A stretch of DNA of 64,000 nt from Lepidodermella squamata. Lineage: Eukaryota > Animalia > Gastrotricha. Shown here piece after piece: positions 14,216 to 37,842 of this stretch; position 1 is the first letter of the stretch; every line of letters begins with the position of its first letter. Made by a program: the position numbers and the translations under genes. The notes under the pieces were generated by a model. The model searched no databases, was not told the origin of the DNA, and saw only the letters and a program-made list of their open reading frames with translations. The stretch spans positions 1,860,001-1,924,000 of the forward strand of contig JBLDXI010000003.1 of NCBI GenBank assembly GCA_047495785.1. Direction: 5' to 3'.

Positions 14216-14711
14216 ATGCGTGCTTTCCTGGCTATTGCTGTTGTGGTCCTATTAGGCCTCGGTAATTTGATTTTGGGTATCTTCTATAATTGCTTATAAT
14301 TTTTCATTTTTAGCCTACTCAGAGGCTAAGGTGTGGAATGTCGAGTCGAAGGAGATGCACCGCAACTACCACAAGAGCACCAGTGTCTCGGCAAGCCGGT
14401 CCTTCGAGAAGAACCGCAAGGCCTTCGGCAAGTGGCGTGCCGCCCCGAAGCGCCAACACGGCAAGAAGTTCGGCCGCAAGATGAACAAACGCCGCGGCTC
14501 CTTCTCGAAATCGGTCTCCGTCTCGGTCTCGTTCTCTGGCAACAGGCGCAACTACGGCGGTCGCAAGTTCCGCCGTCACGGCAAGAAGGCCGGCAACAAG
14601 TGGGGCCACAAGTTCGGCAACAAGTTCGGCTACAACTTCAACCGAAAGGGCAACAAGGGCAACAAGAAGGGCTCCTATTCGTACAGCAAGTCGGTCAGCA
14701 CTTCAAATTAA
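14216..14711 (+). CDS. Secreted Lys/Arg/Gly/Ser-rich protein 1 (147 aa; exons 14216-14261, 14314-14711)
   Basis: Signal peptide MRAFLAIAVVVLLGLAYSEA split by a phase-1 intron. Strong C/G-ending codon bias in an AT-rich context; AATAAA downstream. Confidence 0.85.
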
Positions 14712-15649
14712 GCCAAAATAACACCCGATAAAAAGCAATGTTTTTTCTTTTTTCATGATGATATTATATAAAATGCGAATAAACTGATAATTTTGGGAAT
14801 CACGTCTTGCTTCTCACTTGGTGGTAACAGCGAATGCGACAAAACAGCAAATTTTTTATTTCGCGACAAAACAGCGACAACTTACTGGCCGGAAAAAAAT
14901 CAGATGAATGGAATGACCGAAAGGACGCTGACCCGAACTGACATCAGCTGAAAGGTGTGAGCGAATTTAATTTTGCTGATATATATTTTTCTTCCTGAGC
15001 AATCGAACTATTAAGTGGCAAGTGGCAATCAAGAGAAGTTGACAAATAAAATGATTGGGACATACGTTTAGCTGAACAGACGTTGCCCATGACTTTTGCT
15101 GGTTAGCTGCTTGCTGAACCAATTCTCATCACAGCTAAATTCCTAATATTCAAGGAACTTTTCAAAATTTTCAGGAATTTTGTGATTTGACTTTGATTTT
15201 CGGTAAACTTCTCCCTTTGAGCAAACGTTTCATGATTGAACAAAATATTAAAAAAAATTTCTATGCAAATTTTTACTTTGATGCCAATTTTGAAATTTGC
15301 TCCGCAATGCTAAGCATAAATAAGGCCAACAATTTTTTTCGAATTGTTTATTGATGTTTCCCTTTATCATTTCGGTGGCAAGTGGCAAATAAAATTCGAA
15401 TAAATAACTGTAAATCAAGCTTCAAGTTTGAAATGATTTCGAATTTCGAATTTCATCGTTAACAGTGCGCGTTGTTCGATGGCTCGGACAACACATCGAG
15501 TGGTTTTGGTAATTTTGGCCTGATTGATTCGACTTCTTCGTGTCGTGATATAAATTAATTTCATTAATTTGAGTTGTTTATAATGCTTGCAAAGTTAGGC
15601 TGGAGTATCAATCAACATTCTTCATTCATTCCTTCATTCAAGTAATAAA

Positions 15650-16205
15650 ATGCGTACTTTTGCGGTTTTCGCTGTTATCGCCGTCGCTTTCATCTGTAAG
15701 AATTTTCTGAATTTGTATGATTATTCCTTATTTTTCTCATTTTTCCACAGATTTTAGCGATGCTGGCCGAGTGAGGAGCGGCAGCGAAGAAAATTCTGTC
15801 AGCCGAAGTGTCAGCCGATCGGAAAGCCGAGAAATGTCCGGCAATCATCAACCGAAGCCTCACTACTACAAAAAGCGCCCGGTTGTCACCTACCACCGAC
15901 ACAGCTCTGTTTCAGGCTCGAAAGAAAAGCGCCGCAGCAAGAAGAACACGAAGTACGTCACCATTGTCGAGGCTCGCAAAATTCTACGCATCAAGCGCCG
16001 TCGTGTTACCTCGGTCTCGGGCTCGAACGAGAAGAAAAAGCTGCACAAATCCACCTCGAAGTCCGGCTCTTACAACGCCCGCGGTCGCCGCCATCACGGT
16101 AAAAACCGAAAGGAGAAATCGAAGCCGAAGAAGTATTCCTGGAAGAAGGTCGAGCCATCGAAGAAACGCTACTCGGCATCCAAGTCTTACTCGGCCTCCA
16201 ACTAA
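15650..16205 (+). CDS. Secreted Lys/Arg/Ser-rich protein 2 (166 aa; exons 15650-15695, 15751-16205), paralog of protein 1
   Basis: Same 46-nt first exon and intron phase as protein 1. Signal peptide MRTFAVFAVIAVAFIYFSDA; shared HKSTS motif and YSxSKSxSxSN C-terminus. Confidence 0.85.
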
Positions 16206-16505
16206 CTGAAATAACATTGGCGAGAATTCGCGCAATAATTTATTATTTTTCGTTCGTAAAATAAAATAAAGCTTTAAGGTGGAATTTTTATTGTTCATTT
16301 TTTGCTGTTTTCTGTTTACACGAGGCACGCCGCCATCGACTTTTTTCTGGCCACAATGCACGCTGGAAAAACAAGGTCATCAATAATAATAAAATGACCT
16401 ATAAGCAATGTGTTATTGCTATTAAACCGCGCCCCATTATTACTTGTCAATAGCAGCGGCCAGACGCACGTGGCGTTTTTTCATGGCTTGTTTACTGTTT
16501 ATCCC

Positions 16506-16560
16506 GCCAATCATAATTAAGCAGCCTCGTGCTTGCTGCCACGTGCTTGGTGCTATAAAA
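16506..16560 (+). promoter_or_regulatory. Core promoter: CCAAT, CACGTG E-box, TATAAAA
   Basis: ccaat ~16507, gccacgtg ~16538, tataaaa 16554-16560, second cacgtg ~16467; about 100 bp upstream of the ATG at 16661. Confidence 0.55.
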
Positions 16561-16660
16561 CTGGGGCTGAAACAAGCAGTATTCATCGCTTCACAACATC
16601 GCTTCTAATCTTCACTAGTAGCATTAGTTCATTTCCATTTATTCTCTCTAGTCTTTGCAA

Positions 16661-17197
16661 ATGATGGTCGGTTCGATTTTTGCCACATGGTGAGTAGCTT
16701 TCTTATTTCATTCCCGATTTTCACCAAAAATGATGTTCCAAATTTTTGCATGTATTAGCAGAATCTTTTTGTTGACTAATTTTGTCTGATTTTATTCCAA
16801 TTTTGCTCCCAAAATTCGAGCACTTTTCCATTTCGAAAAATAATTTCTTTGTTTGCCTTGCAGATTGGATGTCGCAAGTTTCCCTCAAGAATGCGGTCCA
16901 GCCAATTCTTTCAAGGTTTGTTTTAAAATATATTAGTAATTTTCGAGTTCCCCAATTCGCCACGTGCGCTTCGATTTGCCTCGGCACATTCGTTGCAGCA
17001 TGCCAAATAAATATAAGAGGGGTACATTATCAATGAACTGGCTAGGAAACAGATGACATCCTGTCTATTTTTGGCTTTAATGTCATTTGTGCCGAAAGTG
17101 CAGTTACATTTCTATTCTCTATTTCAGGTTGAAAGAATGTCCGCGCAACGATCAGGTCAAGAAGATGATGGCGAGTCAGGCTAAGAACGTTCTCTAG
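16661..17197 (+). CDS. Spliced small ORF, 32 aa: MMVGSIFATWLKECPRNDQVKKMMASQAKNVL (exons 16661-16689, 17128-17197)
   Basis: Strong donor (tg|gtgagt) and acceptor (tctatttcag|g) give an in-frame join. TATA promoter upstream, AATAAA at ~17278. Confidence 0.55.
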
Positions 17198-18087
17198 TCA
17201 ACTTGGCAGTATTTTAATGTTTCTAGTCTGCTGTGATTCTTGCTCATCTGTGATAAAAGAAATTGGATAATTTTCGAAATAAATGAAAACTCGTAAAATT
17301 CAGTCTCTTGTTCCTATTTTTAAAATTGATTTTTGCATTTTGGCAAAGCAAAAGCAAAAAATAATTATCAGGCAATGGGAAAGATCATCTAAATTATTTT
17401 GGTCCAATAATTTGTTTTTCGAAATCAACAAAAATTGGATCGATAAAATTTATTTTGAACGCATGGGCGATGAATCATACTTATAATCAAGTCGATGATA
17501 GATCGAGCATTAATAAAGTTATAAATTAATTAATTCAATAAATTGATTAATCAAGCATTGTGTACCAGCGATTATCAGAATACCATTTCACACAAAAAAA
17601 TTTCTTTCAAAAAATCACCCATAGCTTGTCGAATTCGAACTTATTCTTACTTGAGGTTTATATGATTTTTTGCCCGAATTTTTGTTGGCAACAGCAAAAG
17701 TAGGCCGTCAGGTGATATATCTGAGTGGGCAAAAGTGTACCGCTGCAATAAGTATCTTATTCATTTTAATCAGATGGGAGTATCTATTTATGTACATTTT
17801 GCGGTGTCGATAAACGGAGTCTAGCGGAGGATTGCAATAATTTGCGGAGTTTGAGTGCGGCGTAAATTTTCCAATGACGTCACCAGTCACTAGTCATTAC
17901 TCACGCACAGTTAATAGACAGTTTTAAACATGCCCCTGATGCGCCACTTCGCTTATTTATGGCACCTCAGCGATTAATTTTTAATCGTCCTCATGGCCTA
18001 TAAAACCGCGTTAGTTAGCGGCAATTAAAAGCATAATTTTTCAAATCGTCCTAACTGCTTATTATTCAGTTGACCTGTAAATCAAAA

Positions 18088-18721
18088 ATGGCTACTTTAA
18101 CCTCGCTAATAAATACGACCGCTGGTCGAAATAAAAATGTTCACATCTTCGCATCGTCCTCCTTAATGCTGGTTTTCATTTGTCTCATCTATTCCTCGGA
18201 AGCTCTGGATACGGACAAATCAACTGAGTCGCTAATTGCCGATAAGCTCGAAGGAAAAGCAATGGATGAAATTGCGAAACATCGTAAGTATTAAGCTCAA
18301 TTTTTCAGAATAGCCTTGGAAATTTTCGATTTTTTAATGGCCACACCTTTAAAAATTGTAAAATGATATTTTAAAATTAGCAAAGCGAAATTTGTAAAAT
18401 TTAAAAAAAAAAATTCAAATTTTTTTTAAAATTCCACCTTAAATTTTACGATTTTTTATAATAATTTTGTATTTTTCAGAGCTATACGTAAAAATGGCCA
18501 GATCGATAGCGGCTTCGAACAACAAAGAACTGCAATCATTTCTATTGAGCCGTCTTCTGCGAAAATCGGCCGAAAAGCAGTACAGAGAACGGCTAGCCAG
18601 GTGTATGGCAACATTTAATTCGTTATCACTGTGCAACGACCACTACCCAGGGACGTTTTACTTATGGGCGCGGACGGCGGCGAAAAAAATCATGAATGGC
18701 GACATGCCGGCCGTTGTCTAG
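18088..18721 (+). CDS. CX9C secreted-precursor family member A (145 aa; exons 18088-18283, 18480-18721)
   Basis: Hydrophobic signal-like segment, phase-1 intron, ERLARCMATFNSLSLC...WARTAAKKIMNG; TATAAAA at ~17999. Confidence 0.8.
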
Positions 18722-19184
18722 CCTCCAGTTTTACCCCCTTCCTCCCACTCTCTCTCTCATTTGATGATCTGTGATTGTATTTCAGTGCGACAAAAAAATG
18801 ATTGTTGCTATTATATTGCGTACCACGCGCTTTTCTCGCTAAATAAAAAGCCATTGCCGAAAAAAACGTCTCGAATTCTTCTGAATCAATCAAACCTAAA
18901 AAAAAAATAGGCCATCATACTGCGAGTGCGAATTTTTGTATATAGATGAAAAAACATTCTGGGCTTGAACTCCCTTAGTTTTTTTATACAGCCGATGGCA
19001 ATTATATCTGCCCCTTCAAGCAACCATCAGATATTGAAAACTTGAGTAAACAAAACCTTTCCGCGCGTGGAAAAAACTCATCGCTCCACCTTCGCGCGTT
19101 CATAAAGCCACGCAGCACAGTTGAGTCATCATATTAATATTTTTTCGGTATAAGGTCGCTCTGGTGCAATTCATGCGCAATAAA

Positions 19185-19614
19185 ATGCCGATCCCTAGCT
19201 ACATGCTCGACTTGATCACGATTCTCGCCATCATCACAGTGTTAATTACGCTCGCTGGGGCTAATAAGGATCAATTATTGGATAGAGTGGATGGGTACAT
19301 AAACGAAGCTGCTCAAGACGGAAAAACAGGTAAATTTTAAATAATTTTTAAAATAATTTTTAAATTTTTTCGAAATAGCGCCTATAATTCGGATACAGCA
19401 CTTGTTGGCGACGAATAAAGAATTCAAGCGAAAATTGTTTGCCCGGCTTGTTCAGCAGGAAAATGAACGGCAGCATAGAGAACGGCTGGCCAGGTGCATG
19501 GAATTGTTCAAATCGCTGCCGTTATGCAAGGACAACTACGCAGGTGGCTTCTTCATATGGGCCAGATCAGCCGCAAAGCAAATCATGGATGGAAAGGATG
19601 CAACTAGTTCATAG
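19185..19614 (+). CDS. CX9C family member B (126 aa; exons 19185-19329, 19379-19614)
   Basis: Signal peptide, 49-bp phase-1 intron, ERLARCMELFKSLPLC...WARSAAKQIMDG. Confidence 0.8.
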
Positions 19615-20035: not shown

Positions 20036-20416
20036 ATGCTGATCTCGAAATTTTTTGTATTTGCGATTTTTCTCGCGTTAAACTTCAACGCCATGCTTTG
20101 CCAGCCGGAGAAGAAGCTTGATTCTGGTAAAAAATCATCGAAAATTTCAAAGCAAAAGCTGGTTTCTACTACAACGACGCCTGTCCCAATGCCGAAGGAT
20201 TCTATTGCGCGGGAGAATGAGCTGACCGACGAGATTTGGAAGGCGAAAATCGACGAATTAAGCCGGCTAGTTAACGAGGAACGGCTTCAGAAGGAACGGC
20301 TTTTACGGTGTATGAATACCTTCCGATCGAAGACCATTTGTATGGACAACGGCGGCGGTTTCGGCTATTTATGGGCTCGCACTAAAGCTCGGCAAATCAT
20401 GAATGGCCAGCAATGA
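20036..20416 (+). CDS. CX9C family member C (126 aa, single exon)
   Basis: Signal peptide; ERLLRCMNTFRSKTIC...WARTKARQIMNG. Confidence 0.85.
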   Translation: MLISKFFVFAIFLALNFNAMLCQPEKKLDSGKKSSKISKQKLVSTTTTPVPMPKDSIARENELTDEIWKAKIDELSRLVNEERLQKERLLRCMNTFRSKTICMDNGGGFGYLWARTKARQIMNGQQ

Positions 20417-21050: not shown

Positions 21051-21370
21051 GCACTCATGATCTGATAAGAGAAAAAATCGTGATAAATTTTGTAGATAAT
21101 GCGTTGTCATAATCAAGATCATTTAGTGCCGTAATTCGTTATGACTCACTTTTATTCAGTAGTACCTACGCCCGTTTCCCTAGTAGGCTATTTCCTCCCG
21201 CCACTGATTATACCTCGGGGATTAATTTACTATTGACCGGTACCTATTTGTTCCTGTGATCACGAATATTACTGCTTAAATGGAGAGACAGTGATTTAAT
21301 AAGCTCAATTATAGTCATTCTCGAAAAATCGCAGCAAATTTTGCCTTAGCCATTTCCCTACTCTATAAAC

Positions 21371-21757
21371 ATGACTCAATTTTCATACAAAAATTTGGTA
21401 AAATTGCTGATAATTTTTCTCTTATTTTGTCTATGCGATGGAGACGTCATTAGATGTGAGTTTTCTGGTACAAAATGTCATTGTTTTATTACATATTTTT
21501 AATTAATATATACAGCAAAGCGTTACAATCCGTATTTGATGAAGTTGTACGAAAGGCAGTACAACGCGAATTGTTTGGCAATTTTCCACTCGAAATCGAT
21601 ATGCCGACATCAGATTTACGACGGCGCCCAACTGCCGTTTGCTAAGCTGTACGCGCTTTCGAACACGAAAACTACCTCGCGCTTTCCGCGGGTGTTCACG
21701 TCAACGGCGAGCAGTCGTAATAAAGCTGAGAATAAACTCCAAGAAATGAAGCGATAA
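21371..21757 (+). CDS. CX9C family member D (108 aa; exons 21371-21455, 21516-21757)
   Basis: Signal peptide, phase-1 intron, RSKR furin-type site, then YNPYLMKLYERQYNANCLAIFHSKSIC. Confidence 0.8.
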
Positions 21758-22879: not shown

Positions 22880-23233
22880 ATGGCCAACTTTTCGAATAAT
22901 TTTGTAATTTTCGCAATTATTAACCTGGCGATTCTCTCGTATTTTGCTTCGTCGAGTTTTGCACCCGTGAAAGGCCCGCGTATAGCTAAGCGTTGGAATG
23001 CTTTCCTACACGAGTTGTACCAACGCGAGTACTTGAATCGCTGCATGTCCGTGTTCAATTCGATCTCGCTGTGCAAGACGCGGTCCGGCGATGGGTCCGA
23101 TTTCGCGCACGTTGTCCACATGAATCACGCCAAGCCCGACCTACTGCGAACTGGGCCGAAAAAGCCCAAGGTCGAGAAGCCGAAGCTACCTTTCAGGTAC
23201 ATCGATGAGGACGAACAGGAGCAAGAAAAGTAA
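22880..23233 (+). CDS. CX9C family member E (117 aa)
   Basis: Signal peptide, RIAKR site, then WNAFLHELYQREYLNRCMSVFNSISLC. Confidence 0.85.
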   Translation: MANFSNNFVIFAIINLAILSYFASSSFAPVKGPRIAKRWNAFLHELYQREYLNRCMSVFNSISLCKTRSGDGSDFAHVVHMNHAKPDLLRTGPKKPKVEKPKLPFRYIDEDEQEQEK

Positions 23234-24248: not shown

Positions 24249-24758
24249 TTATGCCTCGACACAGTAACCTGTGTAGCCGAATCTGGTTTCATGGCCGTCA
24301 CATGTCCTGCAAGAGAAAATGATTACACAAATAATAGATTTCGCGGAAATGCAATGACATACAGGCCCTCGCAGCAGTAAATCATGCCGTCATCGCCGAC
24401 GTTCTTGGCAAAGAAAGTGTTGCCGCAATAACCCTTCAATGGAGAGCATTGGTCTTTCACGGTGTGGACATTTTTCGCCTCGATGCACAAGCCCATAACA
24501 CCGTAGCGAGTAAGGCGGCCAGAGCACACCCTGCGAAAAATGAACGCAGTTTCGATTATTAAGGGATTACGAAGCAACAAGTATAGACTCTTACAATCCA
24601 TTGCAGCATGAGTCGAAATAGTCGGAACCATTCTCGCACGGTCCGCCGATGCACGCTGTGCACGATTTCCCCAATGCCCCGCATGTGTTCTGGTGAACGA
24701 AAGCATCGACGGCCGCGATGAGAGCCAAAGTCGCAAAAATCACCAAAAATCGAGCCAT
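24249..24758 (-). CDS. Secreted double-knottin (two ICK-like domains), 129 aa; exons 24758-24595, 24530-24363, 24306-24249
   Basis: Spliced translation: MARFLVIFATLALIAAVDA FVHQNTCGALGKSCTACIGGPCENGSDYFDSCCNGLVCSGRLTRYGVMGLCIEAKNVHTVKDQCSPLKGYCGNTFFAKNVGDDGMIYCCEGLTCDGHETRFGYTGYCVEA. The C-C-CC-C-C framework occurs twice. Confidence 0.85.
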
Positions 24759-25155: not shown

Positions 25156-27869
25156 CTATGACACAATCAGAGCCGATAGAATAACAGTCATCAAAATAGC
25201 CATCAGAGTTATCCCACCAAAGACGCCAATATCAATGATTCGAATAACAGGAATCTTGAGTTGCCGGCTTTGATGGCCTACAGTAACTTTCCTTCTTAAA
25301 CGTTTGAGTCTCGACAGATCTGACGTGACGAGAGAGTAAAACGTGCAGGCAACTCCTATAATTCGATATCCATTTAGAATCACGCTAACATAAGCAATCT
25401 CAGATGTTCGCGGCAGGGAATCACTAATCGTTGAATAGAGAACGGCATTTGCCAACACAACTATGGAAAAACAATAATCATAGTTGTTAATTGATCGATG
25501 GATTCGAACCTGTGACACAATACGCTGCCCTGTCATTCTCCTCAGGTGGCATGAACCCGGCTCCAAGTAAGAGGACCAGTAAGCAGATCGATGGGAGGAA
25601 TATGTTGAGGACGTAGACTTCAGTCTTCCGTCTGAGGTGGAATTTGAAGTAGAAGCGGTCGAAACTCGACGCAGGATTGTTGCCATAAACTGCTATCTCG
25701 TGCTTGTAACTGGTATTATCGAGAATCCACAGTTCAGCCTCGCCTATGAAAGTTGTCTTGTTCGCAAATATCCCGTCAATAGTCCACAATCTCTGCCATC
25801 TTCGTGAATGGAAGGATTCAAAGTGGAGGGAACAAACTTGCAGATCGAACGGGAATTTTCTCAAACTTAGAATGTTATCGTCCGGTGGTACAAAAATTAT
25901 CGATACAATAACAATGTTATTGTACTGGCCAAAATACACATAACATGCGTTTAACGTGGATTTTTTTATTTTATTAGTCAAATTGCCCAACTCGACCACT
26001 CACCCCCTGACTGTACTAGCCAAAAGAACACGCATTTTTCTTATTTCTTAACTAGTTTTGTTTTAATAAATAAGGCATAGAGAATAGAGTTAGAATAGAA
26101 TAGAATAGAATAGAGGTAACTCTATTCTCTATGAAATAAGGAAAAGCCCGGCATTTTTGCTCTAAGAGATGCAAATCATTATTGCAGTATCATTACTTTA
26201 TTGAAATTGTCAAAATTTTCAAAACGTATGGCATCGTGGCAAAGGTCCATAAGAGGGCGGAACTGAAAGGGTGATGTAGTTGTCCACATTTCCGTTCGAC
26301 TCAGCTACTAGCTTGCATTGTTGATTGCTCGCGTTGGGATCATCCAAAGGCTGCTCCGTCTCCGAACTAGGAGAAGGGCGAGGCTGCTCCAGCTTCAACA
26401 TTCGATAATTGAAAAGAGCACTAATTGACGCATCGCCCTTTAGGGTGTTACTTCATTTGGCATCAACTAGTCCACCCGGTACATTTCCACACGCAGTGGC
26501 CGGGGAGAATTTTCTTAATCCCGGCTTGCGACACTGCGTTCTTCACCAAAGCATCGATTGAATGCTCGCCCAACTTCACCCGCTTGTATAGCGCTCTTTT
26601 GATCCTATTCGCAGTTCGGAATTGAACTTCTTCCAAAAAACCGATTGTTAGGCGCGGACAGCGTTATAGTCCAGCAGGAAGACCGGCAACAAGACACAAT
26701 CGACTGCCTGGAACAGCGTACGCTCTTGGTCCGCTTCTTCACCTTCTTCTTCAGCTTCTTCAGCTTCTTCAGCCACGGGTTCTAATGAGGCTGTCTCACA
26801 TAAGCAATTTTCCGTTAAAGGAACCGCAAAAATGATGCGTGAATTAAATCGCGGGATCGAAAAATGAATAAATAGCAATGATTTTTGCAAAACGTTAGTG
26901 AAAATATTAGGCTGGATTTTTTAATTTTAGAAATTGACCTTGCTGTCTAGCTATCCTACCCGGTCCGGCTCGTTTTGTCCCACCGAACGATAACATACAT
27001 AGTGGATTCGCGTCGAACATAACGCGTTATAGTACTCCACTCGAGGCTGGCTCGCTTTCGCGAGCCGGACGCCTCTCGGCCAATATCGGAGTACTATAAC
27101 GCGTTATGTTCGACGCGAATCCAATATATACTATTATTCATGTCTGCTGATTAATCGATATTATAGTGATATAGTTACTTAAGACTGCAGAAGGAGTCGA
27201 ATGTTGTAACAATGTACCATACAACTCGACCATCGCTATTGAACTCGATTGGGGTTATCGAAGCAATACTAAAAATGGGTACTAAGCTCGTATCTAAGTA
27301 CTAGCTTCACTTATAAGGTACTACCTTTCTAGGAGATTGACATCTTGGATAGTATTTAAGTGTTGAATGTAAGGATGCCAAGTTTGCTGAGCTGGGATTT
27401 GAACGTTATCGACATCGAACTCGCTATCGCTCCATCTCGCGCAAGGATGCTCCCATGACAGATCCAACTCAGCGATCAAGCTGAATCTGAGAATGGTTAA
27501 TAATAAGTTATAATAAAATAATGAGCGTCATAGTGACATTTTGAGACCACATTTTTGTACTAAATCTTTATAGCTGACTCATGCTCTAAAATTGGCTTTT
27601 GTAGTTTGCAATTTCACCCACGTTTGAAGATAGTCGTCCAGTTTCCGGAAACTGATTCCGGTGAAGGTGAGACTGACATTGATGGGCGAGCGGAAAGTTT
27701 TTACAGGCCGCGAAATCGAATACACGTTACATTGGGAACTCAAGAATTTTTTAACCGCCTCTTCGTCGGGAATGTAGTTTGGAAGAGCAGTTGAATTAAA
27801 ATCTGACAGGACAACATCAGCAAGCAGTGCAAAAGAGAATATAACTGATGGGCTTTTGATAGGCTGCAT
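25156..27869 (-). CDS. Cys-loop ligand-gated ion channel subunit (nAChR-like, non-alpha), copy 1, 5 exons
   Basis: Signal peptide, SRPVK, WHPYI, spliced Cys-loop CSLNLRKFPFDLQVC, FHLRRK-M1, M2 DRAAYCVTVVLA, LPRTS, short M3-M4 loop. Intron 3 (25866-27178) is expanded by insertions. Confidence 0.85.
26076..26133. mobile_element. 58-bp P-superfamily-like transposon footprint with exact 8-bp TSD (aaataagg)
   Basis: catagagaatagagtta...taactctattctctatg perfect 17-bp inverted ends with (GAATA)n filler; TSD at 26068-26075 and 26134-26141. Confidence 0.75.
26219..26640 (-). mobile_element. Degraded tyrosine-recombinase (Crypton/DUF3504-like) coding relic inside the channel intron
   Basis: Minus-strand translation YKRVKLGEHSIDALVKNAVSQAGIKKILPGHCVW resembles the Y...G...I....K.....AG.....NHS.R box; interrupted by stops. 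Confidence 0.45.
27003..27123. repeat. Perfect 36-bp inverted repeat with a nested GC hairpin, probable element terminus
   Basis: tggattcgcgtcgaacataacgcgttatagtactcc (27003-27038) and its reverse complement (27088-27123); inner ggctcgc-tttc-gcgagcc. Confidence 0.85.
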
Positions 27870-28364
27870 TACATCTTTGAAACAACAGCTAGTAGCCTGG
27901 TAGATAATATAATGAGAGAGCAAATAATTATTCTCGCGTTTATTGACAATGTTTTTGTTCAGTAAATATATGTATTCGCATTTTCTCTTCAGTTTTGTCT
28001 AATCATTGATTACCCGGAATCGATAGGCTAAACCATCGCACCATTAAAATGATCGACAAATAAGCCAAACCGTATTCTATCCCCATACACCGCGCAAATT
28101 TTCCGTTCAGAGAAGGGACTAAAACGCTAATTACAAATAACAAATACAGTGAAACGTTATCGATAAGTTACGGATCCGACTACGGTTTACGGTTCCGAAG
28201 AAAGCATTCGACCTAAAGAGAGCGACCCGTGCATGATTCCACGAAAAGTGTTACACGTGGGAGAGATTCGAGATGTCAGTTATCGATAACAGGTTTAGAG
28301 ATAAAACCGATCGATCCTGTGTAAATTGATATATCAGGAAGATTCGTTAACGATAAGGACATCG

Positions 28365-28471
28365 TAATTTCGTAATTTTCGCAGTCATCAACCTGGCGAT
28401 TCTCTCCTACTTTGCTTCGTCGAGTTTTGCACCCTTGAAAGGCCCGCGTATAGCCAAGCGTTGGAATGCTT
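28365..28471 (+). pseudogene. 5' fragment of CX9C member E (signal peptide to KRWNA, then stop)
   Basis: Near-identical to ~22897-23003; no ATG and truncated at aatgct tga. Confidence 0.8.
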
Positions 28472-28656
28472 GAAATAACCGAATAAAATTGTTAGGTATT
28501 GAATTAAATGAAGTTTTGTCCCGCATTAAGAATTTTCTATTTATTTTAGATATCGGGATTTTTATTTATTGTCGGCCATCTTTTCAAGGCTTGATGAAAA
28601 GAAAAAATATATCAAGTCTCTCCGATGAACAAGTCAATGTTTCTTCAAGCGTATCT

Positions 28657-28969
28657 TCAAGATAATGCCTCGGCGTGAACATTTTTCGCCTCGGCGCACA
28701 AGCCCATAACACCGTAGCGAGTAAGGCGGCCAGAGCACACCCTGCGAAAGATGAACGCAGTTTCGATTTTTAAGGGATTACGAAGCAACAAGTATAGACT
28801 CTTACAATCCATTGCAGCATGAGTCGAAATAGTCGGAACCATTCTCGCACGGTCCGCCGATGCACGCTGTGCACGATTTCCCCAATGCGCCGCATGTGCT
28901 CTGGTGAACGAATGCATCGACGGCCGCAATGAGAGCCAGAGTCGCAAAAATCACCAAAAATCGAGCCAT
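28657..28969 (-). CDS. Secreted single-knottin paralog (82 aa; exons 28969-28806, 28741-28657)
   Basis: Almost identical to domain 1 of the 24.5-kb gene; ends ...GLCAEAKNVHAEALS*. Confidence 0.8.
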
Positions 28970-29999: not shown

Positions 30000-30915
30000 T
30001 ACATCGATGCATACCTGGAACTAGGATCTATGCAATGGTTCATTTCATTTAGCAAAAGGTTGTGTTGTTTTTGAGAATCAGCGTCCCCCGTGTAAAATCG
30101 ACGCCAGGAAGCTTGCACAATGGCGAGATGCTGGTTTTGCGGTTGAATTTATTGTTAATCGGCCATTTTTTCTGTGATCGAAACAACACGCGATCAATTT
30201 CTACATTTTTTGCCTCTCTGGTCTCCCCGAACAATTTATAAGGCATTTGATAGGAAGTTTCGAGTCCATCTATACTATTAGTCCCAAGTCGATATCACTC
30301 TGTCGTTTTTTTAAAAATATTTCGATATAGCTTTTTGTTGAAGTCGATTATCTTAAACGCTGTTTTTAGAGGCACGTCATTGTCCTCGAACTTGAGCCGT
30401 AGGTAGTATCTAACAGCTGTTTTTTGTCAACATCAATTTAGGCGGTTCCAGTAAAATTCACGTTCGTGCCGAGGTAGGAATCCGGCAGAGCTGTTTCACA
30501 AAAAGCGTATTTAATGGAAATATTTTGTTCTTTTTTGTTTGGCCCCAGAAACTTTCAGCATATGTGTAATTTCCAACCAAATAGGAGTTGTATAGAATAT
30601 TGAACGTTTTTGGAGGCAGATAAGTGGTAAAACGGTCGATCATATTAGGCACTAGGGCGGCAACTCTTTTGGTATTCGCATTGATTACTTCAACCATTTT
30701 ATCAAAGTTAAGATTATGAGTAAAATAGACCCCAAGGTATTTAAATTCCTTGACTCTTTCAAGCTCCGTACCATTCAGATTGCATTTTATATCAATTTAG
30801 GTGAATCTTTCTTCAAAAATCATAATTTTAGTCTTTTCAACATTAATTTTAAGTGAATTCTCGTCGACGTAGGTAGTTAATGCGCCTAGCATACTTTGTA
30901 GCTGAGCTGGGGCAA
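30000..30915 (-). mobile_element. Degraded non-LTR retrotransposon (RT C-terminal part)
   Basis: LQSMLGALTTYVDENSLKINVEKTKIMIF...ERVKEFKYLGVYFTHNLNF, with frameshifts and stops. Confidence 0.8.
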
Positions 30916-31235
30916 TATAAATGAATAAAACATGATAATTGAACTTTCTTGGTGTCGTCGAGCGAATCGTAACCACGACGTTATACGAATGAAGTAGAGT
31001 TGCTCATTGAGTGCGACCGATCGACGAGAATGCTACGCCGCAATCTTGCAATTTTAGCTATTATCAATTTTAATGAGAAAATGCACCAGCCCCATCATAT
31101 GGTGTATCGATTTATATCGCATTATATTATTTGATAGGATTCAAAACTTTGCCAGCATGGCATCATGGTGTCACACCTATTTATCCTATTTCGTAAATCT
31201 AATGTCGCGGAAAATTCCTAATCCGGGCGACTCGG

Positions 31236-31380
31236 GTGCGCGCATCTTTTCCTTGCACAACTTGTCTTTGCACAACTAACGTCTTTGCACAAGTCGAATT
31301 TGCACATTTGCTTGCACAAATAAGTTTGTACATCTCAACCTTTGCTCAAGTTAGTTTTGCCCATAATTCGGTGCACATCT
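31236..31380. repeat. Cluster of TTGCACA(A) motifs, likely MITE subterminal repeats
   Basis: Five or more spaced ttgcaca units plus variants immediately upstream of the MACPF gene. Confidence 0.5.
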
Positions 31381-31526
31381 ACCACCAACCCTTTTCACCG
31401 CCTGTCTCATCGCTCTACTTGTTAGTTCAAAATTAGCGACCCGCGTTGAAACCATGCATTTTTGTACCGATTTTTATACAATAGTATATTTTTCGAAATA
31501 AGTAAAAATAACAATAATCGGAAGTG

Positions 31527-33551
31527 ATGGAGTCGATAGAAGTAATCATCATGGAAAATCAGACGTCTAGGACAATCTCTGCGCTCGAAAGCTCGGCGTC
31601 TGCTGAGAATGAGTCACTCAACCCTAGACGATGGATTCGGAAACGATGGATTACGATACGGGAGAAAGTAAAAGATGCATTCGAATGTGGGAGAAAGTAC
31701 TACCCGTTGGCACTTTCGATATGTACACTCCTACTAATTTTCATTTGCCTCGGAGTCTTGGGAGGAATTCACTCATCTATGAAGCTATTGATTGCAACGG
31801 GAGGGGCCACAGTTGCGTTTAAGGAAGGAGAGGATTGCCAGTTAGAGGAAGGCACGGAGAAAATACCGCTATTTCCGAATACTGGCTATCTCGGTATGGG
31901 TTACGATCTTTTATTTGGCAACCCGCATCCAACAACAGGCATCGATCCCGGGTTCCGATCGCCCATCTTCAGCTTTTCAAACTATTGCAACGATCTCACA
32001 TCGGATAAGCGCTATCGTACACCACCAAAAGTTTCCATCTCGTCAGCTGTATCGTGTCAGCTCGATTTCGATGTCTCAGTCAGCAGCAGCATAAACGAAT
32101 ACCTAAGTTCACTCGAGCGATCGGTGACGACGTCGTATGGCGCCGAATTTTCGCTTTCATCGTATTTCGAAGCGAAAATGGCGTTTACAGCAAGTCGTGA
32201 TTATAAAAAAGTTCACGAAGAAATCATGAAACAAAGCAGTTACGTGGCAGAAACTGCAGCCACATGTTCGGTCTACCTTGCCCAACTCAACTATTTCGAC
32301 GCGCCGAAGTTGACACAAGATTTCGTCACTGGTGTCAAGAATTTGCCGACTCGGGCCACGTCGGGCAACGAAACGAGAGCCGATAATAAGCGAATCTACG
32401 GCAAATTCTTTGCTGCCTACGGAACTTCAGTTATCACGCGAATGACAATGGGAGCTGTCTACGGCGAGCGGTTTGCCATTTCGACACAAAACTGGCGAAA
32501 AATGACATCTGAAAAATGGGACTTTGCCAAAACGGCTTCGTACTCGGCGAAGGTGCGCCTTTTCTCCGCAAAAGGTTCTGCTTCTGTTTCTAAGACTGAT
32601 ACATCCAATGATCTACAGCAAGCAAGCGACACCTTTGACAAAATGGTTTCATCGCGATCGATATTCACGATAGGAGCCAAGCCCTCGGGCAATCTCAGCG
32701 TTGAATCGTGGCTCGTTGATACCCTCAATGAACCGCTACCAATAGCTATGCACTTGGAATCCATTGCCAGTTTACTGACTAGAAAGGCTTTCCCTGACGA
32801 TGAGAAAATCGACGAGCGTAGAATCGCCTTGGAAGTGGCACTTAATGAGTACTGCCGGAGTTACCTGCAGCCCAATGGCGCAGTCTTTTACTGTGGATCA
32901 CAGGGCCAGAGTCCTTATCTTTATTTCGGGAATGAATTCAAATTACGCTATGCCCAAAATTCGTTACTTCTAGGCTCGCCACAGATAAGGAGGGAAAATC
33001 AGCAAAGTTCATCTGTTGCTTGCATTAACCGTGCCGATCTCCTAGACTGGCAAGCATTACTTCACGAATATAGAATGTGTGAGATTAATCTGAAGAAAGC
33101 ATGGAATAACGAAGTATCATATAACCACCCTGTGCTGTCACCTGTCGCCTTACCACACGTCATGACGCTTGCCAGCAATCCGAATACATTCAGAGTTCTA
33201 CGTGATGGCGACGTTGTGCGCATAAAAACTACCTGGGTGCCGGCTTTCGAACAAAGCCTGTGGTTGTCATACCAGGAGGCGAACCCCGCGTTTGCTCGGC
33301 CTCGCGGAACCGGCGTATACGAGGATTATGCTGAAGCAAGTCTCCAGCAACAATGGCAGATCCACAAATGCAAGCCAGATCTGACAGCTGAATCGCCCGA
33401 GCCCTTGCTTCCCGGCGATTGTATCTACATCCAAAACATGGCCTGGAGAGATGCTTGGCTGTGGAGCTATGCCGAATTTCAGCACCGGGCAGCTGTCGGA
33501 GTCGGAAATGCGGCTGAAAAGCCTAGGTGGTTCCTGGAGGCTGTCGATTGA
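31527..33551 (+). CDS. Intronless MACPF (perforin-like) protein with N-terminal TM/signal anchor and C-terminal beta-rich domain
   Basis: GYLGMGYDLLFGNPHPTTGIDPGFRSPIF and MACPF signature YGKFFAAYGTSVITRMTMGAVYG; TM ALSICTLLLIFICLGVLGGI. Confidence 0.85.
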   Translation: MESIEVIIMENQTSRTISALESSASAENESLNPRRWIRKRWITIREKVKDAFECGRKYYPLALSICTLLLIFICLGVLGGIHSSMKLLIATGGATVAFKEGEDCQLEEGTEKIPLFPNTGYLGMGYDLLFGNPHPTTGIDPGFRSPIFSFSNYCNDLTSDKRYRTPPKVSISSAVSCQLDFDVSVSSSINEYLSSLERSVTTSYGAEFSLSSYFEAKMAFTASRDYKKVHEEIMKQSSYVAETAATCSVYLAQLNYFDAPKLTQDFVTGVKNLPTRATSGNETRADNKRIYGKFFAAYGTSVITRMTMGAVYGERFAISTQNWRKMTSEKWDFAKTASYSAKVRLFSAKGSASVSKTDTSNDLQQASDTFDKMVSSRSIFTIGAKPSGNLSVESWLVDTLNEPLPIAMHLESIASLLTRKAFPDDEKIDERRIALEVALNEYCRSYLQPNGAVFYCGSQGQSPYLYFGNEFKLRYAQNSLLLGSPQIRRENQQSSSVACINRADLLDWQALLHEYRMCEINLKKAWNNEVSYNHPVLSPVALPHVMTLASNPNTFRVLRDGDVVRIKTTWVPAFEQSLWLSYQEANPAFARPRGTGVYEDYAEASLQQQWQIHKCKPDLTAESPEPLLPGDCIYIQNMAWRDAWLWSYAEFQHRAAVGVGNAAEKPRWFLEAVD

Positions 33552-33850
33552 CGAGCTTGCACAATCAATTATTAGGGCTGGAATCTGTCAATGATTTATC
33601 TGACCATAAACATCTGACTTTAATTTGCACAGTGCACAGAAAGAAAACGTGTTTTTAGGACTGGCGATGTACAAGCTGTTTGTATATATATTTATATATA
33701 ATACATGTCATAAATCTCTGATGATCAGCATTATTGTATCATGATTTAACAGAATTACTAATGATGACGTTTGTTTGAAATTCGATTCCGCCAAAGTCAA
33801 TTTAGGCTCCGCTAAAAGGTCTGACCTGCTCCGCTATTCTGTAATAGTTA

Positions 33851-34330
33851 TTAACAATACAGGATAGTATTGCCCTCCTTAGTTGTTAACAGTTTTATAC
33901 GCGTAAACGTTGATATCACGTCAGATTTTCGCGCGCCCTTCAGCCAAGCGAGGCACGACTTGTTGCTAGCACTGCTGTCTTTGCTTTTCGAGAACCCGGT
34001 GTAAGTGCAGGCAACGATTCGATACAGGCAACAGCCGCCACACTTGAGAGACAGCGCCATGACGTAGTCGACCAACAGAATGCGCCTCGACGTCTTCGGA
34101 ATCTGGTCCATGATAGTTTGCTGCGTGACTGTTACTGCCAGCAGGATGGTCATGGACAAAGATGGTCGATCGGGGCCCTTCGGCGGCATGACAAAAGACC
34201 CAAGTTCAACAAAAGACATCATCAACAAGATAACAAGATTCGTGATATAAAAACCCGCATTACCTAGCAAAAGTCACGCTGTAGAAGACAGAACTCGTCG
34301 GCTGGGCCTTGTAAGTGGTTTCAGCCAGGA
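33851..34330 (-). pseudogene. Orphan TM-region fragment of a different Cys-loop receptor subunit
   Basis: FYITNLV...SFVMPPKGPDRPSLSMTILLAV...QIPKTS (M1-M3). No extracellular-domain exons upstream; abuts the duplicated block at ~34355. Confidence 0.7.
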
Positions 34331-34742
34331 AAACAGCCGACGTGACATATTCCCTCTTCAGCTTTGTCTAATCATTGATTACCCGGAATCGATAGGTTAA
34401 ACTATCGCACCATTAAAATGATCGACAAATAAGCCAAACCGTATTCTATCCAAATATACACAGCGTAAATTAGCCCGAAAATACAATTGACTCCGTTCAA
34501 AGAAGGGACTAAAACGATAATGACAAATAACAAATACAGCGAAACGTTATCGGTAAGGACTACGGTTTACGGTTCCGAAGAAAGCATTCGACCTAAAGAG
34601 AGCGACCCGTGCATGATTCCACGAAAAGTGTTACACGTGGGAGAGATTCGAGATGTCAGTTATCAAAACAAGTTTCGGGATAAAACCGATCGATCCTGTG
34701 TAAATTGATATTTCAGGATGATTCGATAAACGAGGACATCGC

Positions 34743-34849
34743 AATTTCGTAATTTTCGCAATTATTAACATGGCGATTCTCTCCTATTTTGCTTCGTCGA
34801 GTTTTGCACCCGTGAAAAGGCCCGCGTATAGCCAAGCGTTGGAATGCTT
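34743..34849 (+). pseudogene. Second 5' fragment of CX9C member E
   Basis: Same truncation point as 28365-28471, plus a 1-bp insertion (gtgaaaagg). Confidence 0.8.
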
Positions 34850-35034
34850 GAAATAACCGAATAAAATTGTTAGGTATTGAATTAAATGAAGTTTGGTCCC
34901 GCATTAAGAATTTTCCATTTATTTTAGATATCGGGATTTTTATTTATTGTCGGCCATCTTAGCAAGGCTTGATGAAGAGAAGAAATATATCAAGTCTCTC
35001 CGTTGAACAAGTCAATGATTCTTCAAGCGTATCC

Positions 35035-35160
35035 TCAAGGTAATACCTCTGCGTGAACATTTTCCGCCTTGCCGCACAAGCCCTCAACACCGTAGCGAGT
35101 ACGGCGGCCAGAGCACACCCTGCGAAAAATGAACGCAGTTTCGATTAATAAGAGATTACA
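35035..35160 (-). pseudogene. Knottin copy 3, exon 1 deleted
   Basis: Exon 2 VCSGRRTRYGVEGLCGKAENVHAEVLP* is retained; intron 1 is fused directly to upstream sequence. Confidence 0.8.
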
Positions 35161-35639
35161 AGTTTTTTCATTATTAGGATAGAAATAATTGGGGTTATCT
35201 GCGTTCAAGTTGATAAGAAAAACAAGCGCCCGCAACCACGGATGTCTCGAAAAACCACTATATTGTACCACTATAGAACAGCTGGGAATGGACTTTTCGC
35301 GAATGTGTCGCGCGACAACAACCACCTTGCATTTTGGCTTACTTTTCTCAGATGAAATTCTTCGAATCCTTCTAAGCTAAAAGAGGTTAGCCGAAAACAT
35401 GACGCGCTCTAATTGATAAGAAAAACAAGCACCCGCAAACACGGATGTCTCGAAAACGACCTTCATTTTTGATCCTGCGTTGGGCATTGGATCATTTGTT
35501 CGGACGATACGTGAAGAAAGCTTGTTCACCTTTCAACCTGTTCCACCTGTTTTTCTGTACCTCAGACGATTTATTAAGAGAATCATTCTATGTTTTGAAA
35601 TAAAGTCGTTCGGTGGTTCAATTCTTTCTGACCGACGAC

Positions 35640-37240
35640 CTACGACACAATCAAAACCGATAAAACTGCGGTCAGCAAGATTGCCAGCAGAGTTATCCCA
35701 CCAAAGACGCCAATGTCAACGATTCGAATAACAGGTATCTTGAGTTGCCGGCTTTGATGACAGATGGTAACTTTCCTCCTTAAATGTTTGAGTCTCGCCA
35801 AATCTGACGTGACGAGGGAGTAAAAGGTGCAGGCAACTCCTATAATTCGATATCCATTCAGCAGCACGCTGACATAAGCAATCTCAGATGTTCGCGGCAG
35901 GGAATCACTAATCGTTGAATAGAGAACAGCATTTGCCAACACAACTATGGAGAAGATATTATAATAAAAATCGTCAAAAATCGATGGTTTCGAACCGGTT
36001 ACACAATACGCTGCCCTGTCATTCTCCTCAGGTGGCATGAACCCGGCTCCAAGTAAGAGGACCAGTAAGCAGATCGATGGGAGGAATATGTTGATGACGT
36101 AGACTTCAGTCTTCCGTCTGAGGTGGAATTTGAAGAAGAAGCGGTCGATACCCAACGCGGGATTGTTGCCATAAACTGCCATATCGTACTGGTAACTGGT
36201 GTTATCAAGAATCCAAAGTTCAGCCTCGCCTATGAAAGTTGTTTTGTTCACAAATATGCCGTCATTGGTCCACAATCTTAGCCATCGTCTTGAATGGAAA
36301 GATTCGAAGTGAAGTGAGCAAACTTGCCGATCGAACGGGAATTTTGTCAATCTTGTAACTTTTGTTAATAGAGCCAGCTTATGTATGAATTAATAGTTTT
36401 ACTCAAGGCTGCAGGATGAGTCAAATGCTGTAACAATGTACCATACAACACGACCATCGTTATTGAACTCGATTTGGGTGATTGCAGCAATACTATGACG
36501 GGTATTTATGAGCTAACTATTAAACACCACTTTCACTAGCACGGTACTACCTTTCCAGAATATTGACGTCTTGAATAGCATTCAGGTGTTGAATGTAAGG
36601 ATGCCACGTTTGCTCGGCTGGGATGAGAACGTGTTCGACTGCAAAATCGCTATCGTTCCATCTTGCGCAAGGATGCTCCCATGACAGATCCAACTCAGCC
36701 ATTAAGCTGAACCTGAGAATGATCATTTAATAAGTTATAAAACAGATTAAGGTGCATAGCGATATTCTACAGTTTGAGAATCCATCGATTTTTGGATGAA
36801 ATATAATATGCCCAAGAAATTGTAGGCTAAATTTTGTTATACACGTCATTCCGTCAGTAGGTGGAATTTTAGCTACATCTGCTCGAAAGAGGTAACTCGC
36901 CTTTTTTTTACTTCCACAAACTGACGGAATGGCGTCATGTAAAACACTTCAACCTAAATTCGAAAACTGATTTTTGTAGTCGAAAATGTTCTCACGTTTG
37001 AAGATAATCGTCCAGTTTCCTGAAGCTGATTCCTGTGAAGGTGATACTGACATTAATAGGCGAGCGGAAAGTTTTTACAGGCCGCGATATCGAATACACG
37101 TTGCATTGGGAGCTCAGGAATCTTTTAACCAGTTCCTCATCGGGAATGTAGTTAGAAAGCGTAGTTAAATCCGAATTCGACTGGGCAAAGTCAGCAAGCA
37201 GTACAAGAATGACTATACCCGCGGGGCGTTTTATCTGCAT
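35640..37240 (-). CDS. Cys-loop ligand-gated ion channel subunit, copy 2, 5 exons
   Basis: Same exon structure as copy 1; Cys-loop CSLELTKFPFDRQVC across the 51-bp intron 36352-36402. Confidence 0.85.
36843..36935. mobile_element. Small hairpin insertion in intron 1 of channel copy 2
   Basis: acgtcattccgtcagt / actgacggaatggcgt inverted arms; absent from the shorter equivalent intron of copy 1. Confidence 0.55.
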
Positions 37241-37569
37241 AATTGGAAGCTATAGTAAAGCCAGGTAGATGAAAACATGAAGCGGCGAAAAATGTATGTG
37301 TGCATTTATTGGCAATCTTTTTTTGATCAGTAACTAAATTCGCATTTCCTCTTCCGTTCGGTCTAATCATAGATTCACCAGAATCAATATGAGAAAAACA
37401 TCGCGCCATTCTGATGATCGACAACTAAGTCTCATAGGACCGTATCTATCGCAATATACACAGCCTGAATTAAACTGAAAATAAATGAAAATAATTCATT
37501 TGACTTTGTATTCAGAGAAGAGACTATAAAACGCTAATTACAAAGAAACTAATAAGTATTGTCAATGTC

Positions 37570-37842
37570 TCATTTAGCACCAATGCTTGACAGGTAGCTG
37601 TAGTAGATGTTGCATTTTTTATTCGTCCAAGTGCAGAAATCAAATCGCTTCTGCTTCATAAAACCGTAGCACTCCTGTTCCGTCTCGATTGTTTTGGGGA
37701 TATCCTTCAATTGAGCGTAGATTACTAGCTGCCCCTCGTTCGCGTATTGAGGAACTTTCTTGTGGAAACATTGACCGTTACCGAAAACCAGAAGGCCATT
37801 GGTTACCATTAACACGAAAATTGCCTGTAAAAATCGCTTCAT
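37570..37842 (-). CDS. Small secreted Cys-containing protein (90 aa), possibly PAN/apple-like
   Basis: Signal peptide; four Cys, TEQECYGF...FCTW...KCNIYY. Confidence 0.6.
   Translation of the reverse strand: MKRFLQAIFVLMVTNGLLVFGNGQCFHKKVPQYANEGQLVIYAQLKDIPKTIETEQECYGFMKQKRFDFCTWTNKKCNIYYSYLSSIGAK

What the first reader, a model, noticed from the sequence alone, without database searches (positions are those of the whole stretch)
14216..37842. A ~24-kb island of lineage-specific secreted effectors (possible gland/venom/defence locus)
About eleven intact small secreted or pore-forming genes from several unrelated families (cationic, CX9C, knottin, MACPF, PAN-like) cluster with signs of recent birth and death (fragments, deletions, segmental duplication). 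Knottins plus MACPF are recurrent venom and defence recruits. Co-expression in one secretory cell type is a hypothesis.
Basis: inference. Interest (0 to 1): 0.72.

Follow-up and report, generated by a model that had tools for sequence, protein, structure and literature searches.

The report
Secreted-gene patchwork with silk-like glue proteins
This stretch of a small animal's genome holds eleven intact genes for predicted secreted or membrane-anchored proteins plus two intact nerve-type receptor channels, much of it repeated by local duplication and with no sign found of a shared venom role, and two of the genes carry the alternating-serine blocks of caddisfly underwater silk, so they likely make a glue or coat material.

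Summary
The genes are real: 11 open models confirmed (2 cationic, 5 CX9C paralogs, 2 knottin-like, 1 MACPF, 1 four-Cys protein), with fragments and a thrice-copied cassette. The 'effector island' reading is weak. Two intact Cys-loop receptor genes, not named in the finding, sit inside the copied cassette (dN/dS 0.21). The MACPF is predicted to be membrane-anchored, not classically secreted. 'PAN-like' got no database support. The knottin copies show no positive selection (0.22, seven differences). No promoter word is shared above background. Clustering is significant per gene (p 0.005-0.05) but not per family (p 0.2-0.7). No RNA or whole genome was available, so co-expression and genome-wide density are untested. 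The most interesting part was under-read: the two cationic proteins put 18 of 19 and 21 of 29 serines into (Ser-X)n blocks, 4 of 8 ending in Glu, as in caddisfly underwater silk. Phosphorylating them would cancel their +34/+36 charge, which suggests a phosphoserine glue or coat. One knottin is a tandem double domain, an architecture reported mainly from venoms: the best point for the venom idea. The scan noted a different polyserine-block cluster in another genome.

The parts
14216..14711 (+). g1: 147-aa predicted secreted cationic protein with three (Ser-X)n blocks and Lys/Arg/Gly-rich spacers; exons 14216-14261, 14314-14711
   Evidence: pI 11.7, GC3 0.82, TATA 76 nt upstream, SxSxS count 12 vs 0.36 in shuffles; many related contigs in run X2
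15650..16205 (+). g2: 166-aa predicted secreted cationic protein with five (Ser-X)n blocks, three ending in Glu; exons 15650-15695, 15751-16205
   Evidence: pI 11.1, SxSxS count 11 vs 1.03 in shuffles; phase-1 intron after a 46-nt first exon, as in g1
16652..17199 (+). g3: three exon-like pieces behind a TATA box, with no spliced open frame carrying a signal peptide; likely a decayed or non-coding gene
   Evidence: sequence; 0 models
18088..18721 (+). g4: CX9C-family protein, 145 aa (119 aa from the second in-frame Met considered); exons 18088-18283, 18480-18721
19185..19614 (+). g5: CX9C-family predicted secreted protein, 126 aa, two exons
20036..20416 (+). g6: CX9C-family predicted secreted protein, 126 aa, intronless; modelled as a long helix plus two short helices
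   Evidence: mean pLDDT 66; best Z 5.0, generic helices only
21371..21757 (+). g7: CX9C-family predicted secreted protein, 108 aa, Lys-Arg site before the domain; exons 21371-21455, 21516-21757
22880..23233 (+). g8: CX9C-family predicted secreted protein, 117 aa, Lys-Arg site before the domain; start of the duplicated cassette
24249..24758 (-). k1: 129-aa predicted secreted protein with two tandem C-C-CC-C-C (knottin-like) domains, 14 Cys; exons 24758-24595, 24530-24363, 24306-24249
   Evidence: no Pfam hit on the first two exons searched singly (12, 83)
25156..27869 (-). Cys-loop ligand-gated ion channel copy A, open five-exon model of 393 aa
   Evidence: Pfam Neur_chan_LBD E 1.3e-06
25866..27178 (.). 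1.3-kb intron 3 of receptor A (51 nt in copy C); holds 31-nt inverted arms 1,077 nt apart, a 135-nt hairpin and broken ORF pieces; likely a non-autonomous DNA element
28365..28471 (+). truncated copy of the 5' part of g8
   Evidence: 93% DNA identity over 107 nt
28657..28969 (-). k2: 82-aa single-domain knottin-like protein, 97% identical to k1 over 77 aa
31527..33551 (+). intronless 674-aa MACPF protein with a predicted type II membrane anchor (about residues 61-79) and an unassigned C-terminal region
33851..34273 (-). fragment of a different Cys-loop receptor (transmembrane part only)
   Evidence: Neur_chan_memb E 4e-06
34743..34849 (+). second truncated copy of the 5' part of g8
35041..35118 (-). 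k3: remnant of the knottin gene's second exon only; broken, left as it is
   Evidence: tblastn
35640..37240 (-). Cys-loop ligand-gated ion channel copy C, open five-exon model of 386 aa
   Evidence: Pfam E 5.6e-06; best PDB match 5-HT3A receptor E 9e-07
37570..37842 (-). 90-aa predicted secreted protein with four Cys (spacing 32, 11, 6); family unassigned

Best explanation
The interval is a patchwork of three blocks, much of it built by local tandem and segmental duplication and likely not one co-regulated venom island: two predicted secreted cationic proteins with alternating-serine blocks that likely become phosphorylated and set into a glue or coat, an old tandem array of five predicted secreted CX9C proteins, and a younger cassette (CX9C gene, knottin-like gene, Cys-loop receptor gene) copied about three times and pruned by deletions. 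Shown: the gene models, paralogy, block duplications, dN/dS near 0.2 in both measurable pairs, and the serine periodicity. Inferred: unequal crossing-over as the source of the copies; Fam20C-type phosphorylation priming at Ser-x-Glu and running along each (Ser-X)n block; neutralisation of the Lys/Arg spacers by the phosphates, so that the chains condense and stack as cation-bridged beta-strands like caddisfly silk (my odds for this role of g1/g2 are about 45%). The knottins and the anchored MACPF are most likely surface or immune defence proteins, and the CX9C proteins processed secreted peptides, each expressed on its own schedule.
For: Duplicated blocks of 70-95% identity carry receptor, knottin and g8 pieces together. 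Both receptor copies are open, dN/dS 0.21 over 386 codons; k1/k2 0.22 over 75 codons. Enrichment disappears when families are counted. Among 9 upstream regions the most shared 6-, 7- and 8-mers (6, 5 and 3 of 9) were matched or exceeded by 277, 179 and 299 of 300 random intergenic sets. The MACPF's first 25 hydropathy windows peak at 0.21 against 2.7 near residue 60. g1/g2: SxSxS counts 12 and 11, reached by 0 of 20,000 shuffles each; 18 of 19 and 21 of 29 mature serines lie in blocks, and net charge would go from +34 to -2 and +36 to -6 at -2 per phosphate. Caddisfly H-fibroin is built of (SX)nE, n 3-5, X hydrophobic, aromatic or Arg, with Gly-rich spacers (passages of PMC10387566; PMC4929942). 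FAM20C acts on S-x-E/pS and is proposed for tubeworm cement (passages of PMC12621633). g1 has strong codon bias (AAG 21: AAA 2; TTC 10: TTT 0), as expected of a highly expressed gene.
Against: At gene level the density is higher than in the rest of the window (scan p 0.005-0.05), and none of the 10 outside hits of the signal-peptide scan had both TATA and poly(A) signal against 3 of 11 inside. Four different small secreted families lie within 24 kb, which duplication alone does not explain. k1 is a tandem double knottin-like protein, an architecture that in 2017 was described only from venoms (PMC5577568). The promoter test is weak (300 nt, exact words). Only 4 of 8 serine blocks end in Glu, g2 has only 5% Gly, and the proteins are about 15-17 kDa against over 300 kDa for H-fibroin; no phosphorylation or expression is shown. 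The k1/k2 ratio rests on 7 differences.
Confidence: 0.55

Rival explanations
1. The small secreted genes form one co-regulated locus for a non-venom secretory cell (epidermal, adhesive or egg-coat gland): g1/g2 are the matrix, CX9C proteins are accessory or signalling parts, and knottins and MACPF protect the secretion from microbes. The receptors are passengers.
For: Gene-level clustering p 0.005-0.05; TATA boxes 72-146 nt upstream in 6 of 10 small genes; all seven left-hand genes lie on one strand; glue-like features of g1/g2.
Against: No shared upstream word above background; family-level clustering not significant; codon bias differs widely (GC3 0.48-0.82), which suggests different expression levels.
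Confidence: 0.27
2. The interval is a venom or offensive-secretion locus: double and single knottins as ion-channel toxins, MACPF as pore-former, cationic proteins as cytolytic or spreading factors.
For: C-C-CC-C-C framework in tandem, resembling remipede xibalbin 3 (Cx6Cx6CCx4Cx9-11C twice; PMC5577568), which acts on ryanodine receptors (passage of PMC11288129); true MACPF fold; recent duplication of the knottin.
Against: Loop 2 is 16-17 residues, not 6; dN/dS 0.22; the MACPF has a predicted anchor and Ser in place of the signature His kept in 135 of the 145 relatives in which the motif was found (150 examined); its best named relatives are protist proteins and its fold is shared with immune and parasite proteins; the cationic proteins show beta-type, not amphipathic-helix, periodicity; ICKs mostly act as defensins across many organisms.
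Confidence: 0.08
3. The patchwork holds, but g1/g2 are not glue: they are unphosphorylated cationic antimicrobial or nucleic-acid/polyanion-binding proteins whose Ser-X strands only drive amyloid-like storage in granules.
For: pI 11.1-11.7, 26-28% Lys+Arg; half of the blocks lack a terminal Glu primer; neighbours are plausible defence genes.
Against: Near-exact charge balance after phosphorylation and confinement of 18 of 19 serines to blocks are not needed for an antimicrobial peptide.
Confidence: 0.1

Closest known systems
Caddisfly H-fibroin (pSX)nE underwater silk (PMC10387566, PMC4929942; passages read)
   Same: (Ser-X)n blocks with X often Val, Phe, Tyr or Arg, some closed by Glu, separated by spacers rich in basic residues (and Gly in g1); predicted secretion.
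   Different: 127- and 146-residue mature chains with 3-5 blocks, against over 300 kDa with conserved termini; far more basic (26-28% Lys+Arg against 7.6-16.9%); no Cys; no homology shown; phosphorylation untested.
Sabellariid tubeworm cement (polyphosphoserine Sa-3/Pc-3 plus oppositely charged partners; PMC12621633, passages read)
   Same: Predicted charge pairing of phosphoserine with basic residues; S-x-E sites suited to FAM20C.
   Different: There the opposite charges lie on separate proteins; here both would lie in one short chain, in alternating blocks.
Inhibitor cystine knot peptides, including double-ICK xibalbin 3 (PMC5577568, PMC11288129; passages read)
   Same: C-x6-C...CC-x4-C-x12-C framework, twice in tandem in k1, after a predicted signal peptide.
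   Different: Loop 2 of 16-17 residues (with an extra Cys pair in domain 1), 12-residue linker against 4; no Pfam hit on the exons searched; no venom context shown.
MACPF proteins of the perforin-like branch (Toxoplasma PLP1 5own/5oup, MPEG1; protist and invertebrate MACPFs)
   Same: Pfam MACPF E 6e-28; Foldseek E 1.6e-17 to TgPLP1; 1,103 relatives at E<=0.001.
   Different: Predicted type II anchor instead of a cleavable signal; signature His replaced; unassigned C-terminal 215 residues; best relative only 40% identical.
Pentameric Cys-loop receptors (5-HT3/nAChR-like)
   Same: Ligand-binding domain, C-x13-C loop, hydrophobic membrane segments.
   Different: Very divergent, short intracellular loop, tandemly duplicated; ligand unknown.

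Membership tests
Venom/gland gene cluster | Co-expression in one venom or gland cell type | not testable with these tools
   No run on record as RNA holds the stretch.
Venom/gland gene cluster | Density of secreted orphans above genome background | tested here: inconclusive
   No whole genome; within the window p 0.005-0.05 per gene, 0.22-0.71 per family.
Venom/gland gene cluster | Accelerated amino-acid change among toxin paralogs | tested here: inconclusive
   k1/k2 dN/dS 0.22 from 4 synonymous and 3 replacement differences; CX9C pair saturated at silent sites.
Venom/gland gene cluster | Shared upstream regulatory word | tested here: inconclusive
   None above background among 9 regions of 300 nt; weak test.
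Caddisfly H-fibroin | (SX)nE motifs, n about 3-5, X hydrophobic, aromatic or Arg | tested here: met
   8 blocks in g1/g2, 4 ending in Glu (n 5, 6, 3, 3); p<1e-4 for periodicity; definition.
Caddisfly H-fibroin | Very large repetitive chain with conserved N- and C-terminal domains | tested here: not met
   147 and 166 aa, no such termini, no Cys. Not a member; a look-alike in motif.
Caddisfly H-fibroin | Serines phosphorylated; Ca-stabilised beta-domains | not testable with these tools
   Needs proteomics and spectroscopy.
Inhibitor cystine knot | C-C-CC-C-C cysteine framework | tested here: met
   Gaps 6,16,0,4,12 in k1 domain 2; 6,(2,4,9),0,4,12 in domain 1 and k2.
Inhibitor cystine knot | Short loop 2 (6-7 residues in the xibalbin ICK scaffolds read) | tested here: not met
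   16-17 residues here.
Inhibitor cystine knot | Knotted disulfide topology | not tested
   Each domain spans an intron, so no unspliced window stretch holds a whole domain; not folded.
MACPF superfamily | MACPF domain by profile and fold | tested here: met
   (281 residues pLDDT>=90).
Secreted MACPF toxin | Cleavable N-terminal signal peptide | tested here: not met
   Hydrophobic segment only near residues 61-79 behind a basic N-terminus (hydropathy only); a downstream start at Met85 is not excluded.
Secreted MACPF toxin | Pore formation or toxicity | not testable with these tools
   Needs assay.
PAN/apple domain | Profile match and C-x3-C core | tested here: not met
   No Pfam family at E<=5; Cys gaps 32, 11, 6; the C-x3-C core is recalled, not from a call. 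A degenerate PAN fold is not excluded (not folded).
Cys-loop ligand-gated ion channels | Ligand-binding domain, C-x13-C loop, transmembrane region, open frame | tested here: met

The most novel reading that the evidence does not exclude
A little-studied small invertebrate has independently evolved miniature, self-neutralising phosphoserine 'silks': short secreted chains in which (pSer-X)nGlu strands and Lys/Arg spacers sit in one molecule, encoded by a multi-copy family. They lie beside an orphan CX9C peptide array and a tandem double knottin that together stock one adhesive or coat-forming gland. Odds about 0.45 for the phospho-glue role of g1/g2 alone, about 0.2 for the whole one-gland locus.
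Probability: 0.2. Interest if true: 0.7.

Novelty: new member of a known kind. Interest (0 to 1): 0.36.

Why it matters
As a cluster it is ordinary birth-and-death evolution of secreted genes. It matters for three parts. (1) g1/g2 would be a very small, convergent version of the caddisfly phosphoserine silk motif, easy to express and test as a wet adhesive. (2) The five CX9C proteins are a family with no relative found in the searches run and no assignable fold. (3) k1 would extend the rare tandem double-knottin architecture to an animal with no shown venom, which bears on how such toxins arise.

Tried and rejected
Expression: no RNA holder listed. Run X1 is only guessed to be RNA; its contigs gave no GT-AG intron joint among the 15 of 18 joint rows shown and also covered intron sequence, so nothing is concluded from it. 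Read-laying covered only 12300-19250, so the CX9C array beyond g4, the knottins, the MACPF and the receptors were not examined in these runs. Whole genome: none held. Relatives: word-index search found none for the MACPF (0 of 7,995 candidates) or g6 (0 of 10); metagenome scans found none for the MACPF domain (0 of 100 pattern matches) or g1 (0 of 475); the CX9C alignment was too variable to scan with and matched no PDB sequence at E<=10. The ESM Atlas did not hold g6; the MACPF relative P0001 gave only general MACPF clusters. Fold search of g6: best Z 5.0 of 48,161 chains, generic helices; no family is excluded by this. The MACPF C-terminal region modelled mostly below pLDDT 50 and had no useful Pfam or PDB match; my by-eye guess of a beta-trefoil is unsupported. 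Taxon: the flanking asparagine synthetase groups with three unnamed proteins (support 99) and not with Romanomermis in a quick 45-row tree; phylum left open. Earlier-finding look-ups by sequence and place gave nothing. Literature: 10 searches; two searches returned 0 papers, and none of the listings seen described small (SX)nE proteins outside insects or this cluster; subscription journals are not covered and no supplements were opened. No complex prediction was run, as no binding is claimed. The g7 and glucanase-like models had wrong starts; g7 was corrected, and the glucanase row is not used.


Full report
Setting. The window is from an intron-bearing animal genome of about 42% GC, with short GT-AG introns, Cys-loop receptors, CUB and laminin-G/F5-8 genes. 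No whole genome is held.

Check of the observation. Eleven open gene models lie in 14216-37842. They are g1 and g2 (147 and 166 aa, pI above 11), g4-g8 (108-145 aa, each with one C-x9-C pair; alignment), k1 and k2 (129 and 82 aa, 14 and 8 Cys), a 674-aa MACPF and a 90-aa four-Cys protein. All ten small genes have AATAAA within 300 nt downstream (common by chance in AT-rich DNA), and six have a TATA box 72-146 nt upstream. Signal peptides were judged by hydropathy only. Pfam names none of the ten at its cut-off. Decay is real: two truncated g8 copies, one knottin exon remnant, one receptor fragment and an unresolved g3.

Self-comparison shows blocks of 70-95% identity repeating a unit of g8, knottin and Cys-loop receptor about three times; they cover 5,923 of 14,963 bases from 22880 to 37842. 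Two of the receptor copies are complete five-exon open frames (393 and 386 aa) with dN/dS 0.21 over 386 codons (Pfam and PDB support). The right half of the 'island' is thus a segmental duplication that carried secreted and non-secreted genes alike.

Is the clustering more than chance? A crude signal-peptide scan gave 11 models inside and 10 outside the interval; 3 inside and 0 outside had both TATA and poly(A) signals, and most outside hits look spurious. Using my hand counts, 10 of 11-13 small secreted genes in one 23.6-kb stretch has scan p 0.005-0.05, but 4-5 of 5-7 families has p 0.22-0.71. Several flank genes also encode extracellular-type proteins (CUB, two laminin-G/F5-8 genes, a PQQ-type propeller, a weak GH17 match). 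No 6-8-mer was shared by the nine upstream regions above random intergenic sets. Genome-wide density and co-expression could not be tested.

MACPF. Profile (E 6e-28), 1,103 relatives and a confident model matching Toxoplasma PLP1, MPEG1 and perforin settle the family. The only hydrophobic segment lies near residues 61-79 behind a basic N-terminus, which predicts a type II anchor; 56 of 138 Met-starting relatives had an early hydrophobic stretch and 10 only a late one. The signature His is Ser here, against His in 135 of the 145 relatives where the motif was found (150 examined). The few named relatives among 12 looked up are protist or 'hypothetical' proteins. Sea-anemone MACPFs include both venom and developmental paralogs (abstract of PMC11090067), so the domain alone does not indicate venom.

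Knottin-like genes. k1 has two tandem C-x6-C...CC-x4-C-x12-C domains, each split by an intron three codons after the CC pair, which suggests an internal duplication; k2 has one. Loop 2 is 16-17 residues against 6 in xibalbin 3. k1 and k2 differ by 4 silent and 3 replacement changes (dN/dS 0.22). The knot topology was not tested.

CX9C family. Five paralogs with saturated silent sites in the pair tested, so this array is older than the cassette. g7 and g8 have a Lys-Arg site just before the domain, which suggests prohormone-type processing (inference). The g6 model is a long helix plus two short helices at pLDDT 66, with only generic matches. No relative was found.

The cationic pair. Serines occur at every second position in blocks: SxSxS counts are 12 and 11 against shuffle means of 0.36 and 1.03, reached by 0 of 20,000 shuffles. 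18 of 19 mature serines of g1 and 21 of 29 of g2 lie in eight blocks, four ending in Glu. At -2 per phosphate the net charges +34 and +36 would become -2 and -6 (His ignored, full occupancy assumed). Caddisfly H-fibroin is made of (SX)nE motifs, n 3-5, with X hydrophobic, aromatic or Arg, phosphorylated and modelled as Ca-bridged beta-strands (passages of PMC10387566, and PMC4929942). FAM20C phosphorylates S-x-E/pS and is proposed for tubeworm cement, which condenses by pairing opposite charges (passages of PMC12621633). g1 has the strongest codon bias of the 14 valid models measured (GC3 0.82). In run X2 summed contig depth over g1 is about 1,500-1,750 against about 70-180 in most bins, with several variant contigs and 3-nt deletions inside the frame. 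The tool warns that this is not a copy number, but it fits a multi-copy g1 family. g1 and g2 are not fibroins (small, no conserved termini, no homology shown); the claim is that they may work alike.

Mechanism and verdict. Most likely (0.55) the region is a duplication-built patchwork whose parts serve separate surface, matrix and defence roles, with g1/g2 as predicted phosphoserine glue or coat proteins. A shared non-venom gland (0.27), a patchwork with antimicrobial g1/g2 (0.10) and a venom locus (0.08) remain. Shown: gene structures, paralogy, duplication, selection ratios, serine periodicity, MACPF and receptor identity. Inferred: secretion, phosphorylation, material role, tissue. The cluster is a new member of a known kind; interest 0.36, carried by the mini-silk pair, the orphan CX9C family and the double knottin.

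Noticed in passing
window 38407-40056 (-): Intronless asparagine synthetase whose named close relatives are mostly fungal and amoebozoan (at most 58% identity), with unnamed ones at 60-65%; possible old gene transfer.
   Followed up: partly
window about 2200-9100 (-) and 58600-64000 (-): Two paralogous large multi-exon genes with laminin-G3 and F5/8 domains, 65-70% alike in DNA.
   Followed up: no
window 14826-14886: Short element present in many contigs of run X2 with unrelated flanks (43 loose ends at one place, depth about 4,000): a dispersed repeat just downstream of g1.
   Followed up: no
window 25866-27178: Intron insertion with inverted arms and a nested hairpin; it carries broken ORF pieces with an acidic run, perhaps a captured gene fragment.
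   Followed up: partly
window 30461-31003 (-) and 56151-57470 (-): A decayed piece that looks like a retroelement tail by eye (no Pfam hit) just upstream of the MACPF, and a 439-aa reverse transcriptase ORF (RVT_1 E 3e-26).
   Followed up: no
window 41752-42851 (+) and 52546-53868 (+): A weak GH17-like protein (E 0.098) and a PQQ-type beta-propeller, both with hydrophobic N- and C-termini suggesting surface anchoring.
   Followed up: no
window 12334-13344 (-) and 503-2059 (+): DUF4419 and DUF6492 genes; the DUF4419 region shows about 1.5-fold raised depth in X2.
   Followed up: no
window 11564-11638 (-), 11963-12033 (+): tRNA-Thr(CGT) and tRNA-Gly(GCC).
   Followed up: no
window 21364-21371: g7's only TATA-like word is 7 nt from its ATG, too close to serve; g7 may have lost part of its promoter.
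   Followed up: no
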